Assembly: GCF_003334305.1 (NCBI RefSeq)
Contig: NZ_QOWS01000001.1
Origin: Escherichia coli
Lineage (GTDB): Bacteria; Pseudomonadota; Gammaproteobacteria; Enterobacterales; Enterobacteriaceae
DNA: 64,000 bases
Direction: 5' to 3' (one strand)
The stretch's first letter is position 1. Each line of letters opens with the position of its first letter. Position numbers: made by a program. This document shows positions 24,601 to 27,600 of the stretch, one piece after another.

Positions 24601-27600
24601 ATAATTGACTTGAGTATTTTTTGCATTAGCGGCGATCTTCTGAAGATAGCAAGCTATTTCATCTGTGGTTAATTGACGATTTTTATCCCAGAAGTTTGTA
24701 TCATCACTCAGTTCATTATTCTCATCATTTAAAAGCACCTTTGAAAGCGACTGTTTTTCAGATATAAGAGGAATTTCATCACCGATAATTGTCATTAATT
24801 TCGAAGGGGAGAATAGCTTTTTGAACAGGAGAACATCTGAATTATCCGGACCAGTTGGTTTAAGGTGGGAGTTGGTTGCGGTATGTGCCAAATTATATAA
24901 TTTTAAACAGGCATTTTTAATAAGTCGGATAATCGATAGGGTCTCATTTGTTGGGTTTCTAACAATATGGTAAAGAATATCTTCAGCTTTTTTTCCAAAT
25001 TCATCATAACCTAACGCAATATTATGCAGTAACTCAATACTTTCTTCATCTCCGGATAACGCTGTTTTTTTTAAAGACTGCAGTAATTCCTCGGTCACAG
25101 TAAATTTTTCTGCAAATGTCTGACTGAGTTGGGTTTGAGATAATTGACAATAATTGCTGACAACTGTAACCATCATGGGCTCCTTTTAGTTGCAAAGGTT
25201 GTGCTGAATGAAGATAAAAAGAGGCAACTTATTGCTCTGAATATAGTTCGTAAGGAGATGAATAAATATCAAAAATCGCTCAATATGCCCGTGTGGGTGG
25301 ATATATGTAGCGCGGGTTGCGATAACAGGGCAAGTTTCGCCCTGTTTTTAATAATAAGCAGAGTTAAACGTTAAACACGGTGAAATCATTCGCTAGTTCA
25401 GTCGCCGGGAAAATTGACCTGCATTCACGTAACAGGTGCTGACAACCTTTGTCATCATAGCGCGAGCTGACGTGGGTAATGATTAGCTTACCGACTCCAG
25501 CCTCACGGGCTAGTGTCGCAGCCTGGCGTGTAGAGCTATGGCCGCGACTATTGGCTTTGGCTTCCATGGTTATATCCAGCGTCGCTTCGTGCACCATGAC
25601 ATCGACACCTTTAGCCAGGTCAAGTGCGGCATCGCAGGGGCCGGTATCGCCGAAAATAGCGAGCGCTTTACCTGGCACTGGAGCAGCTAAGTAATCTGCG
25701 CCGTTAATCTGCCTTCCATCTTCCAGCGTGATTGTTTTGCCCGCTTTTAATTCCTGAAACAGTGGGCCAGGCGGCACGCCAGCAGCTTTTAATGCCTGGG
25801 CATTTAATGCACCCGGTTTATCATGTTCTTCAATACGATAGCCATAACATTCCAGTGGGTGTTCCAGCGGATAAGCGGTTACTTTGCGCAGGCCATCATC
25901 GAGAATTTCGCCAGCGCCAATTTCGACAATTTCCAGCGGATAATCGGTCCATGAGCCGCTAATCCGCAGCGCGGTTTCCACAAATTCACGGATACCTTGC
26001 GGACCATAAATCGTTAAGGGTTGGATAATGCCTGACATAGAACGACTGCACAGCAAGCCGGGTAAACCAAAAAGATGATCGCCATGAAGGTGACTGATAA
26101 AAATCTTGTCCAGTTTTCCAGGGTTAAAGGCGGTATGCAGTAGCTGATGCTGGGTGCCTTCACCGCAGTCAAACAACCAAAGTCCGCTCTGGGTCGGATG
26201 TTGCAGGTTAAGCAATATTGCCGTGACATTGCGCGTGCGGGTTGGCACACCGGCTGAAGTACCTAAAAAAATTAATTCCATGAGTTCATCACGTTTCAAA
26301 AAATATTCCGGCTAGTATAAGGCATACATCTAAAAGGAGAGCATTATGATTGAATGGCAAGATCTGCATCACTCTGAATTATCGGTTTCCCAGCTTTATG
26401 CCTTATTACAACTGCGTTGCGCGGTGTTTGTTGTCGAGCAGAATTGCCCTTATCAGGATATCGATGGTGATGATTTGACGGGGGATAATCGCCATATTCT
26501 CGGTTGGAAAAATGATGAACTGGTGGCGTATGCGAGGATTCTGAAAAGTGATGATGATCTTGAGCCGGTCGTTATAGGTCGGGTGATTGTCAGTGAAGCG
26601 TTGCGTGGCGAAAAAGTGGGGCAGCAGCTGATGAGTAAAACACTCGAAACATGTACGCATCACTGGCCTGATAAGCCTGTTTACCTCGGGGCGCAGGCGC
26701 ATCTGCAAAACTTCTACCAGAGTTTCGGTTTTATCCCTGTGACGGAGGTCTATGAAGAAGATGGTATCCCACACATTGGGATGGCACGCGAGGTAATTCA
26801 GGCGTAATCAACAACCCTTGTCTATAGTTAGTGACAGGTTTTACGCAAATGGAGAACGAGAATGTCTAATCAGTTTGGTGATACACGTATCGATGACGAC
26901 CTGACGCTGCTTAGTGAAACACTGGAAGAGGTGCTCCGCTCCTCTGGCGATCCCGCCGATCAGAAATATGTTGAGCTGAAAGCGCGTGCAGAAAAAGCGC
27001 TGGATGATGTGAAAAAACGGGTTAGCCAGGCTTCAGACAGTTATTACTATCGGGCGAAGCAGGCAGTTTATCGTGCTGATGACTACGTCCACGAAAAACC
27101 CTGGCAAGGAATTGGTGTGGGCGCGGCCGTTGGGCTGGTACTAGGACTGTTGCTGGCACGCCGTTAAAACCTCCCTACACCGGGGTACTGCATTTTTTTT
27201 GTAGTACCCCGTATAATGTGAGGCTTTTAACAGGGAGAGGTCCGCGTGCAATCACTTACTACGGCGCTGGAAAATCTACTGCGCCATTTGTCGCAAGAGA
27301 TTCCGGCGACACCCGGCATTCGGGTTATCGATATTCCTTTCCCTCTCAAAGACGCTTTTGATGCCTTGAGCTGGCTGGCCAGTCAGCAAACGTACCCGCA
27401 ATTCTACTGGCAACAACGTAATGGTGATGAAGAAGCTGCCGTCCTGGGCGCGATTACCCGTTTTACGTCGTTGGACCAGGCACAACGTTTTCTTCGCCAG
27501 CACCCGGAACACGCCGACTTACGCATTTGGGGGCTGAATGCTTTTGACCCGTCGCAGGGCAATTTACTTTTACCCCGCCTGGAATGGCGACGCTGTGGCG

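What the first reader, a model, noticed from the sequence alone, without database searches (positions are those of the whole stretch)
27181..27217. Hairpin with its T-run in the loop, followed by TATAAT, between elaB and menF
CGGGGTACTGC-attttttttt-GTAGTACCCCG forms an 11-bp stem with one G-U pair, with the T-run inside the loop rather than after the stem. It is followed immediately by GTATAAT, 29 bp before the menF GTG start. This could be an atypical elaB terminator overlapping a menF promoter -10 element.
Basis: seen in the sequence. Interest (0 to 1): 0.2.

Follow-up and report, generated by a model that had tools for sequence, protein, structure and literature searches.

The report
elaB mRNA end hairpin abutting menF promoter
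The hairpin is real and conserved: published maps put the end of the elaB messenger RNA just after it and the start of the menF messenger ten bases further on, so it is a compact but ordinary gene-boundary element of a known kind.

Summary
CGGGGTACTGCA/T7/TGTAGTACCCCG (27181-27211) folds into a 12-bp stem of -20.9 kcal/mol (z = -7.3). There are 8 T, not 9. TATAAT follows directly at 27212-27217. The window is E. coli K-12.

Term-seq, TRS and SMRT-Cappable-seq place the dominant elaB mRNA 3' end at 27215-27219, which is 4-8 nt after the stem. SMRT-Cappable-seq places a capped menF-menD(-menH) start at 27225, 8 nt after TATAAT.

The stop is leaky: 10 long reads end there and 16 pass, with a median extension of 199 nt. 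There is no U-tract; the tail is UAUAAUGU.

The hairpin-plus-TATAAT block is conserved in 36 Enterobacteriaceae sequences. Relatives with a canonical elaB terminator lack the hairpin but keep the -10.

The closest known kind is the U-tract-less 3' stem-loop of E. coli transcripts. Whether polymerase releases at the hairpin, or further downstream with trimming back, is unresolved.

The loop T-run has no terminator role. An anti-Shine-Dalgarno-like tract 5' of the hairpin pairs with the menF ribosome-binding site strongly in Salmonella and the Enterobacter-like genera, but weakly in E. coli.

Interest is low.

The parts
26862..27167 (+). elaB coding sequence (stop codon TAA at 27165-27167)
   Evidence: ORF list. 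Identical to E. coli K-12, and annotated as elaB in MG1655.
27170..27176 (+). CCTCCCT, an anti-Shine-Dalgarno-like tract 5' of the hairpin, complementary to the menF ribosome-binding site
   Evidence: CTCCCT is at least 90% conserved in alignment A1. Its flanks are complementary to the ribosome-binding-site flanks in a lineage-specific way. The pairing is weak in E. coli itself.
27181..27211 (+). Stem-loop: 5' arm 27181-27192, U7 loop 27193-27199, 3' arm 27200-27211. This is the 3'-terminal hairpin of elaB and elaA-elaB mRNA.
   Evidence: Fold of -20.9 kcal/mol, z = -7.3. A hairpin is retained in 35 of 36 related sequences. RNA 3' ends map 4-8 nt after it.
27193..27200 (+). T8 run. It forms the loop of the hairpin in RNA. 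In DNA it covers positions -32 to -25 of the menF promoter.
   Evidence: Sequence. Three apical T columns are 89-100% conserved. A T8-to-T7 variant exists in E. coli strain PE144.
27212..27217 (+). TATAAT: the -10 element of the menF promoter, and also the A/U tail of the elaB transcript
   Evidence: A capped start lies 8 nt downstream. TATAAT or TATACT is conserved 28-32 nt before menF in all compared genera, including those that lack the hairpin.
27215..27219 (+). Steady-state 3' ends of elaB and elaA-elaB transcripts
   Evidence: Term-seq 2380674. SMRT-Cappable-seq transcript end 2380674. TRS peaks at 2380673 and 2380670. Coordinates checked.
27225..27225 (+). menF transcription start (menF-menD and menF-menD-menH transcripts)
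   Evidence: SMRT-Cappable-seq start at 2380664(-). Coordinates checked.
27232..27248 (+). menF Shine-Dalgarno region AGGGAGAGGT (27232-27241) and GTG start codon (27246-27248), within a 21-nt 5' UTR
   Evidence: Sequence. Conserved in alignment A1.
27163..27231 (+). Outer inverted repeat, Escherichia-specific: GTTAAAACCTCC (27163-27174) and GAGGCTTTTAAC (27220-27231), enclosing the hairpin and the -10
   Evidence: Minimum-free-energy fold of 27160-27250. These pairs have probability above 0.98 in a 121-nt context. The 5' arm is absent outside Escherichia.

Best explanation
The element is a compact gene-boundary module of about 45 bp.

Shown by published maps:
(1) The 12-bp stem-loop is the 3'-terminal structure of elaB and elaA-elaB mRNA. 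Steady-state 3' ends lie 4-8 nt after the stem, inside and just past TATAAT.
(2) TATAAT is the -10 element of a menF promoter that starts transcription at 27225, about 10 nt beyond the upstream transcript's end. The hairpin DNA therefore occupies about -44 to -14 of that promoter.

Inferred:
(3) The 3' end is not made by canonical intrinsic termination, because no U-tract follows the stem. Polymerase reads through at an appreciable rate. Read-through RNA mostly ends within the first ~200 nt of menF, by Rho-type or other premature termination or by decay. 3'-to-5' exonucleases then trim back to the hairpin, which acts as a protective barrier. Some direct hairpin-induced release in the A/U-only tail UAUAAU probably contributes.
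(4) The T-run is not a terminator U-tract. It is the hairpin loop, and in DNA it is the T-rich stretch spanning the downstream part of the -35 hexamer position and the upstream part of the spacer of a promoter with a perfect -10 and no recognisable -35.

I hold points 1-2 at about 0.9. I hold the read-through-and-trimming route at about 0.5.
For: Hairpin stability.

RNA 3' ends: 27215 in Term-seq, listed three times in the curated table for LB OD 0.4, LB OD 2.0 and M63. 27216 and 27219 in TRS, with signal 0.80-0.98. 27215 as a transcript end in SMRT-Cappable-seq, where 30 reads start at 2381565, 10 end at the site, 16 pass, none end within the next 50 bp, and the median read-through is 199 nt.

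menF start: 27225.

No U-tract: only 4 of the 8 nt after the stem are U and no two are adjacent. The consensus terminator scan does not call the hairpin.

Known kind: Dar and Sorek 2018 report that E. coli Rho-dependent transcripts end immediately after stable stem-loops lacking U-tracts, produced by PNPase/RNase II trimming, with mild C-over-G enrichment downstream. Here the first ~180 nt of menF have GC skew of -0.05 to -0.19.

Comparative:
- The block GGGTACTGC-loop-AGTACCCCGTATAAT is conserved in 36 sequences from Escherichia, Salmonella, Citrobacter, Enterobacter, Lelliottia, Leclercia, Kosakonia, Phytobacter and others, while the rest of the spacer diverges.
- Enterobacter sp. R1 (L011) and Cedecea (L057) have a canonical hairpin plus T9 after elaB, lack the GGGTAC hairpin and keep CGTATAAT at the same distance from menF. 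Franconibacter (L016) has a hairpin with a shorter TCGTTTTATT tail and the same pattern. Atlantibacter (L012) has a different hairpin that also lacks a U-tract.
- Where menF is not downstream (Pantoea, Erwinia), elaB is still followed by a strong hairpin.
Against: - No Rho termination region is listed between MG1655 2380000 and 2380799 in the bicyclomycin data of Adams et al.. menF-promoter transcripts could mask such a signal.
- The stem base is G/C-rich, the tail is entirely A/U for 6 nt, and one mapped end (27219) lies 8 nt after the stem. All three fit weak intrinsic termination equally well.
- TRS signals of 0.80-0.98 suggest that little RNA crosses the site at steady state, which conflicts with the 16-of-26 read-through seen in size-selected long reads.
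- The mapped start base is a T, which is unusual, so the start may be off by 1-2 nt.
- Kim et al. 2012 did not list this start and instead assigned 5' ends inside elaB to menF.
- No experiment on this site specifically was found.
Confidence: 0.55

Rival explanations
1. A weak but genuine intrinsic (factor-independent) terminator. The very stable, G/C-based hairpin forms while the weak all-A/U hybrid UAUAAU is in the polymerase. A fraction of complexes release at about +7/+8, and the tail is nibbled back to +4/+5. The promoter's need for TATAAT keeps the tail from evolving into a U-run.
For: The hairpin is -20.9 kcal/mol with CCCCG at its base. The six nucleotides after the stem are all A or U. 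A TRS peak at 27219 lies 8 nt after the stem. No reads end in the next 50 bp, so the stop is sharp. No bicyclomycin-sensitive region was called nearby. Dar and Sorek themselves note that low-U stem-loops may be inefficient intrinsic terminators backed up by Rho.
Against: Only 4 of 8 tail positions are U and none are adjacent. The consensus scan does not call it. 16 of 26 long reads pass the site. The dominant Term-seq end is only 4 nt after the stem, which is shorter than the usual release distance, so trimming is needed in any case.
Confidence: 0.35
2. The inverted repeat works mainly as DNA, either as an operator for a dimeric regulator or as a supercoiling-dependent cruciform. It would sit across -44 to -14 of the menF promoter and tune menF transcription. 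On this reading the RNA hairpin is a by-product.
For: Both arms are conserved in sequence rather than merely in pairing: GGTACT and ACCC are invariant columns, and 3 core pairs never vary. Arm spacing is nearly constant at 13-15 bp between GGTAC and GTACC, by my count from the sequences. The promoter lacks a -35, which is typical of activator-dependent promoters.
Against: RNA 3' ends map exactly at the foot of the hairpin. Pairs at the top of the stem change with partial compensation, and the loop varies from 3 to 12 nt. Genera with a canonical elaB terminator have lost the repeat but keep the -10. No regulator of menF binding here is known to me, and none turned up in the searches.
Confidence: 0.07
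3. A compound terminator. The outer helix CCUC(C)/GAGG (27170-27174 with 27220-27223) closes over the inner hairpin, and the following CUUUUAAC serves as the U-tract, releasing RNA at about 27228-27231.
For: The outer helix is in the minimum-free-energy fold, with pair probability above 0.98. Four U follow it.
Against: No reads end within 50 bp downstream of 27215, and all mapped ends are at 27215-27219. The 5' arm of the outer helix exists only in Escherichia. The menF start at 27225 lies inside the proposed tail.
Confidence: 0.02

Closest known systems
Protective 3' stem-loops at the steady-state ends of Rho-dependent E. coli transcripts (Dar and Sorek 2018, PMC6061677; hypothesis of Peters et al. 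2012)
   Same: A stable stem-loop with energy like that of intrinsic terminators, no U-tract, a precise steady-state 3' end directly after the stem, and mild C-over-G composition downstream.
   Different: Rho dependence and PNPase/RNase II dependence are not shown for this site, and it is absent from one bicyclomycin-based list. Here the tail is a promoter -10, and a new transcript starts 10 nt beyond the end.
Canonical intrinsic (Rho-independent) terminator: G/C-rich hairpin followed by a 7-8 nt U-tract
   Same: A G/C-rich hairpin 13 nt after a stop codon, a sharp 3' end a few nt after the stem, and a weak A/U RNA-DNA hybrid in the tail.
   Different: The tail is UAUAAUGU rather than a U-run. 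The only T-run is inside the loop. Read-through is substantial. Related genera that do have a canonical terminator after elaB use a different hairpin.
U-tract-less 'I-shaped' terminators proposed for mycobacteria (recalled from memory: Unniraman et al. 2001; Mitra et al. 2008; later disputed)
   Same: A stable hairpin without a U-tail at a gene end.
   Different: This is a different organism and polymerase, and that class is itself contested. Nothing about it was tested here.
Sigma-70 promoters with a consensus -10 and a poor -35
   Same: A perfect TATAAT 8 nt upstream of a mapped capped 5' end, conserved across genera.
   Different: The best -35 candidates match 2 of 6 positions (TGCATT at 17 bp, CTGCAT at 18 bp), and there is no TG extension. 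The -35 and spacer DNA is a perfect palindrome that doubles as the upstream gene's 3' hairpin.
Shine-Dalgarno sequestration by an upstream anti-Shine-Dalgarno tract (long-range translational masking, as in RNA phage and operon intercistronic structures; general knowledge)
   Same: A CCUCCCU tract resembling the 16S rRNA 3' end, 56 nt upstream, is complementary to the menF ribosome-binding site, with lineage-specific extensions.
   Different: The mask lies upstream of the gene's own promoter, so it would act only on read-through transcripts. In E. coli the pairing is weak and competes with another helix. No functional test exists.

Membership tests
Canonical intrinsic terminator | Stable G/C-rich stem-loop shortly after the stop codon | tested here: met
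   12 bp, -20.9 kcal/mol, z = -7.3, 13 nt after TAA.
Canonical intrinsic terminator | U-tract of about 7-8 nt immediately 3' of the stem | tested here: not met
   The tail is UAUAAUGU, with 4 U in 8 and none adjacent. The terminator scan, which requires at least 5 T in 8, does not call it.
Canonical intrinsic terminator | RNA 3' end about 7-9 nt after the stem | tested here: inconclusive
   Published ends lie at +4 (Term-seq, SMRT-Cappable-seq), +5 and +8 (TRS).
Canonical intrinsic terminator | Factor-independent release by purified RNA polymerase | not testable with these tools
   Needs in vitro transcription.
Protective 3' stem-loop of Rho-dependent transcripts | Stable stem-loop without a U-tract, with a precise steady-state 3' end directly downstream | tested here: met
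   Family definition.
Protective 3' stem-loop of Rho-dependent transcripts | Read-through increases when Rho is inhibited (bicyclomycin) | tested here: inconclusive
   No Rho termination region is listed at 2380000-2380799 in Adams et al. supplementary file 2. The menF promoter 10 nt downstream would mask the signal. The Dar and Sorek tables are not held.
Protective 3' stem-loop of Rho-dependent transcripts | Longer 3' tails in pnp or rnb mutants | not testable with these tools
   No accessible data.
Protective 3' stem-loop of Rho-dependent transcripts | C-over-G (rut-like) composition downstream, and diffuse ends downstream | tested here: inconclusive
   GC skew is -0.05 to -0.19 over 27240-27420. 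Median read-through is 199 nt. Both are weak indicators.
Sigma-70 promoter | -10 hexamer close to TATAAT, 6-9 nt upstream of a 5'-triphosphate start | tested here: met
   TATAAT at 27212-27217. Capped start at 27225.
Sigma-70 promoter | -35 hexamer close to TTGACA at 16-18 bp, or a TG extension | tested here: not met
   The best candidates match 2 of 6 positions. The bases before the -10 are CCCCG. The promoter scan finds nothing.
REP or other dispersed palindromic repeat | Many copies per genome sharing a consensus | tested here: not met
   One place per genome in 5,422 E. coli genomes, even with sensitive blastn at E = 10. No Rfam match.
Shine-Dalgarno-sequestering RNA structure | Base pairing of the ribosome-binding site that is kept by compensatory change across species | tested here: inconclusive
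   Core CTCCCT/AGGGAG is nearly invariant, which is uninformative. The flanks are complementary in lineage-specific ways. Covariation score is 0.117-0.126 against 0.088-0.096 for shuffles and 0.046-0.078 for slid controls. The segment ranks in the top 1% of local 20-mers in 16 of 36 species, but only at the 10th-31st percentile in Escherichia.

The most novel reading that the evidence does not exclude
The hairpin is the core of a nested RNA module that insulates menF from elaB transcription. The CCUCCCU tract just 5' of the hairpin, which resembles the 3' end of 16S rRNA, pairs with the menF Shine-Dalgarno and start region. This happens only on transcripts that read through from elaB, because transcripts from the internal TATAAT promoter start downstream of the mask. 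Read-through RNA would therefore not be translated and would be exposed to Rho and decay, while promoter-derived menF mRNA is translated freely. The evidence is good in Salmonella, Enterobacter, Lelliottia, Leclercia, Kosakonia, Phytobacter and Trabulsiella. In E. coli the pairing is weak and competes with the alternative helix 27163-27174/27220-27231.
Probability: 0.25. Interest if true: 0.45.

Novelty: new member of a known kind. Interest (0 to 1): 0.2.

Why it matters
The site is a clear worked example of how tightly E. coli packs a gene boundary. A single 31-nt palindrome serves as the 3' hairpin of one mRNA and as the -35 and spacer DNA of the next promoter. The promoter's -10 hexamer is also the tail of the upstream transcript.

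It shows why motif-based predictors miss both elements: there is no U-tract and no -35. The mapped elaB 3' end and menF start are not annotated in the RefSeq records examined here; I did not check EcoCyc or RegulonDB.

If the anti-Shine-Dalgarno masking is real, it would be a simple way to stop a stress-induced upstream gene from dragging along a biosynthetic operon. That remains a hypothesis. None of this changes any general principle.

Tried and rejected
- Rfam: only chance snoRNA hits with E > 1.
- Consensus scans: no promoter was called. The only terminator-like call near the site pairs ACCTC with GGGGT (27169-27186) and uses the loop T-run as its tail. That fold is -5.2 kcal/mol with z = -0.4, so the idea that the T-run is the U-tract of an upstream mini-hairpin was dropped.
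- Compound terminator using the outer helix plus UUUU: contradicted by the mapped ends.
- Repeat family or REP: rejected, because the element is single-copy.
- RNAalifold on the MAFFT alignment predicted only 3 trivial pairs and not even the inner hairpin. The alignment is not structure-aware. A covariance-model realignment gave nearly the same modest pair statistics.
- Sigma-dependent pausing at TATAAT, or a roadblock by promoter-bound polymerase, would put 3' ends about 10 nt downstream or about 70 nt upstream respectively. Neither matches the observed ends. This rests on general knowledge and was not tested.
- Literature searches for elaB together with menF, terminator, Rho, ProQ or Hfq found no study of this site.
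- Data not obtainable: Dar and Sorek tables and Grünberger tables are not held. Thomason 2015 is not held. The held Cappable-seq supplements had no entry for the locus.
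Full report
WHAT IS IN THE SEQUENCE

The window is E. coli K-12. The 301 bases around the site are 100% identical to strain DH1 and many other strains, and the region is present in 5,422 of 5,426 complete E. coli genomes. Comparison with the MG1655 record gives the coordinate rule MG1655 = 2407889 minus window position, with these genes on the minus strand of MG1655.

elaB is 26862-27167 and menF starts with GTG at 27246. Between them lies CGGGGTACTGCA (27181-27192), seven loop T (27193-27199) and TGTAGTACCCCG (27200-27211), followed directly by TATAAT (27212-27217).

As RNA on the + strand this folds into a 12-bp stem of -20.9 kcal/mol (z = -7.3; 0 of 200 shuffles fold as well). The minus strand folds less well, at -15.3 kcal/mol, because the G-U pair becomes a mismatch.

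The run has 8 T, not 9. The gap to the menF GTG is 28 nt, not 29.

Perfect stems of this size occur at 6 places in the window, against about 1.3 hits in shuffled windows. The hairpin alone is therefore not proof of function.

WHAT THE SCANS SAY

Rfam has nothing for the region. The consensus scans call neither a promoter nor this hairpin as a terminator. The tail after the stem is UAUAAUGU, so there is no U-tract. There is also no -35: the best candidates are TGCATT or CTGCAT, each matching 2 of 6 positions, and there is no TG extension.

The one terminator-like call nearby would use the loop T-run as the tail of a 5-bp ACCTC/GGGGT stem. That structure folds no better than shuffled sequence (-5.2 kcal/mol, z = -0.4).

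PUBLISHED TRANSCRIPT MAPS

Three independent data sets place the end of the elaB transcript at the foot of the hairpin.
- Adams et al. 2021 (Term-seq) list a dominant 'primary' elaB 3' end at 2380674(-), which is window 27215, the fourth base of TATAAT. It appears three times in their curated table covering LB OD 0.4, LB OD 2.0 and M63.
- The TRS study lists a primary elaB terminus at 2380669-2380678, with dominant positions 2380673 and 2380670 (window 27216 and 27219). The signal values are 0.80, 0.85 and 0.98, on a scale where strong termini score close to 1. That study's own table draws the same hairpin.
- SMRT-Cappable-seq (Yan et al. 2018) lists 2380674 as a novel transcript end for elaA-elaB transcripts starting at 2381565. 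There are 30 reads at that start. 10 end at the site, 16 pass it, none end in the next 50 bp, and the median read-through is 199 nt. An elaA-elaB-menF variant is also listed.

The same SMRT-Cappable-seq study lists a capped (5'-triphosphate) start at 2380664(-), which is window 27225, for menF-menD and menF-menD-menH transcripts. That start is 8 nt after the last T of TATAAT. TATAAT is therefore a working -10 element, and the new transcript begins 10 nt beyond the old one's end.

An older, less sensitive 5'-end map (Kim et al. 2012) does not list this start. It instead assigns to menF two 5' ends inside elaB, at window 27081 and 27132, neither of which has a -10-like sequence upstream.

COMPARATIVE EVIDENCE

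I fetched 80 loci encoding ElaB relatives, one genome per species. In 36 sequences elaB is followed by menF through a spacer containing the block GGGTACTGC-loop-AGTACCCCGTATAAT. These come from Escherichia, Salmonella, Citrobacter, Enterobacter, Lelliottia, Leclercia, Silvania, Kosakonia, Phytobacter, Trabulsiella, Yokenella, Huaxiibacter, Intestinirhabdus, Pseudenterobacter and Pluralibacter. The sequence between the stop codon and the block is otherwise unalignable.

35 of the 36 fold into a hairpin of -11 to -22 kcal/mol. Loops range from 3 to 12 nt, and three apical T columns are 89-100% conserved.

The lower stem is invariant in sequence, so it says nothing about pairing. The upper stem varies with partial compensation. 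Overall pair statistics are modest: 79-80% of cells are paired, and the covariation score is 0.117-0.126. Column shuffles give 0.088-0.096 and slid controls give 0.046-0.078.

Enterobacter sp. R1 (L011) and Cedecea (L057) carry a canonical hairpin plus T9 after elaB. They lack the GGGTAC hairpin but keep C(G/A)TATAAT 28-32 nt before menF. Franconibacter (L016), whose hairpin has a shorter TCGTTTTATT tail, shows the same pattern. Atlantibacter (L012) has a different hairpin that also lacks a U-tract. In Pantoea and Erwinia, where menF is not downstream, elaB is still followed by a strong hairpin.

So the hairpin travels with the end of elaB and the TATAAT travels with menF. This is what the terminator-next-to-promoter reading predicts.

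Within E. coli the 42-nt element is single-copy and unannotated. 1,352 of 5,423 records differ at one or two positions. Two variants seen are A27203C, which breaks one upper-stem pair, and T8 to T7.

HOW IT MOST LIKELY WORKS

What is shown: elaB transcripts end 4-8 nt after the stem, menF transcripts start at 27225, and some upstream transcription crosses the site.

What is inferred is how the end is made. The structure fits the class described by Dar and Sorek 2018. In that class, E. coli transcripts that depend on Rho end precisely after stable stem-loops lacking U-tracts, because exonucleases (PNPase, RNase II) trim diffuse downstream ends back to the stem. A mild C-over-G bias lies downstream.

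Here the first ~180 nt of menF have GC skew of -0.05 to -0.19. Half of the read-through long reads end within 199 nt. The dominant end is only 4 nt from the stem.

Against this, no bicyclomycin-sensitive region is listed anywhere in 2380000-2380799 by Adams et al.. The menF promoter 10 nt downstream could hide such a signal.

The main rival is a weak intrinsic terminator. The stem is very stable with a G/C base. The next six bases are all A or U. One mapped end lies at +8. The stop is sharp. The tail cannot evolve into a U-run without destroying the -10.

I put trimming after downstream termination at about 0.5 and weak intrinsic release at about 0.35. The two are not exclusive.

The T-run cannot act as a terminator U-tract, because the 3' arm is transcribed after it. 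It is the loop, and in DNA it covers -32 to -25 of the promoter. Its partial conservation may reflect either role.

A SECOND LAYER SEEN IN PASSING

Just 5' of the hairpin is CCTCCCT (27170-27176), which resembles the 3' end of 16S rRNA and is complementary to the menF ribosome-binding site AGGGAGAGGT (27232-27241). CTCCCT is at least 90% conserved.

The flanks match the ribosome-binding-site flanks in lineage-specific ways:
- Salmonella: ACCCTCCCT with AGGGAGGGT
- Phytobacter: AATCCCCTCCC with GGGAGGGGATT
- Leclercia: CTTCTCCC with GGGAGAAG
- Pluralibacter: CTCCCCCG with CGGGGGAG
- Trabulsiella: GAACCTCCCT with GGGGAGGTTC

The predicted unpaired probability of the Shine-Dalgarno region is 0.22 on read-through RNA and 0.43 on promoter-derived RNA, averaged over the 36 sequences. 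These sequences are related, so the accompanying p-value is not meaningful.

The tract ranks in the top 1% of local 20-mers for pairing with the ribosome-binding site in 16 of 36 species.

In Escherichia the case is weak. The tract ranks only at the 10th-31st percentile, and predicted accessibility does not differ between the two RNAs (0.55 against 0.47). With elaB coding sequence included, the alternative helix GUUAAAACCUCC/GAGGCUUUUAAC (27163-27174 with 27220-27231) wins by 6.3 kcal/mol (-46.7 against -40.4). When folding starts at the stop codon, the masked form is the minimum-free-energy structure.

This suggests, but does not show, that read-through transcripts carry a masked menF start in many genera. 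I give it a probability of 0.25 as a functional device relevant to this window.

COMPARISON WITH WHAT IS KNOWN, AND NOVELTY

The element fails the defining U-tract test for a canonical intrinsic terminator. It meets the structural definition of a U-tract-less 3' stem-loop of the Dar and Sorek kind, but Rho and exonuclease dependence are untested.

The promoter meets the -10 and start-site criteria and fails the -35 criterion.

It is not a dispersed repeat.

The RNA end and the start are already in public high-throughput tables. I found no paper that discusses this site or the terminator-promoter overlap.

I file it as a new member of a known kind. Interest is low at 0.2. The masking hypothesis is the only part that would raise it.

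Noticed in passing
window 27170-27176 with 27232-27241: CCTCCCT, which resembles the 3' end of 16S rRNA, lies 5' of the hairpin and is complementary to the menF ribosome-binding site. The complementarity extends in lineage-specific ways in Salmonella, Phytobacter, Leclercia, Pluralibacter and Trabulsiella. It is weak in Escherichia and Citrobacter.
   Followed up: yes
window 27163-27174 with 27220-27231: An outer inverted repeat, GTTAAAACCTCC/GAGGCTTTTAAC, includes the elaB stop codon and encloses the hairpin and the -10. It dominates the predicted fold of longer E. coli RNAs. Its 5' arm exists only in Escherichia.
   Followed up: partly
window 23905-23940 and 53904-53931: Two more strong perfect hairpins without a following T-run: a 16-bp GTTCGACCAGTCAGCA... 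stem between elaD and yfbK, and an 11-bp GCAGGATGGCG... stem. Three of the six strongest hairpins in this window lack a U-tract.
   Followed up: no
L062 (Yokenella regensburgei), about 2877-2906, inside the menF 5' UTR: A 22-nt insertion relative to the other genera contributes to a G/C-rich hairpin followed by a T-rich tail (GAACCTGCCTCAGGCAGGTTC + TTCGTT) between the -10 and the Shine-Dalgarno sequence. It looks like a terminator or attenuator in the leader.
   Followed up: no
window 27203 and 27193-27200: E. coli polymorphisms. A27203C breaks the U27189-A27203 stem pair in strains ChlosBP-23-1 and PE144. PE144 also has T7 instead of T8. 1,352 of 5,423 records differ from K-12 at 1-2 of the 42 bases.
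   Followed up: partly
window 27081 and 27132 (inside elaB): Kim et al. 2012 list 5' ends here and assign them to menF (41 and 65 reads). No -10-like sequence precedes them, so they may be processing sites.
   Followed up: no
elaA-menF region of Klebsiella pneumoniae (not in the window): The ortholog table of Kim et al. 2012 shows no elaB ortholog between elaA and menF in K. pneumoniae. That spacer would show whether the hairpin depends on elaB.
   Followed up: no
window 26810-26836: The elaB start mapped by Kim et al. 2012 (MG1655 version 2 coordinate 2379075, which is window 26836) is preceded by CTATAGT. I recall from general knowledge that this resembles a stationary-phase sigma-type -10 with an upstream C, which would be consistent with the RefSeq product name 'stress response protein ElaB'.
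   Followed up: no
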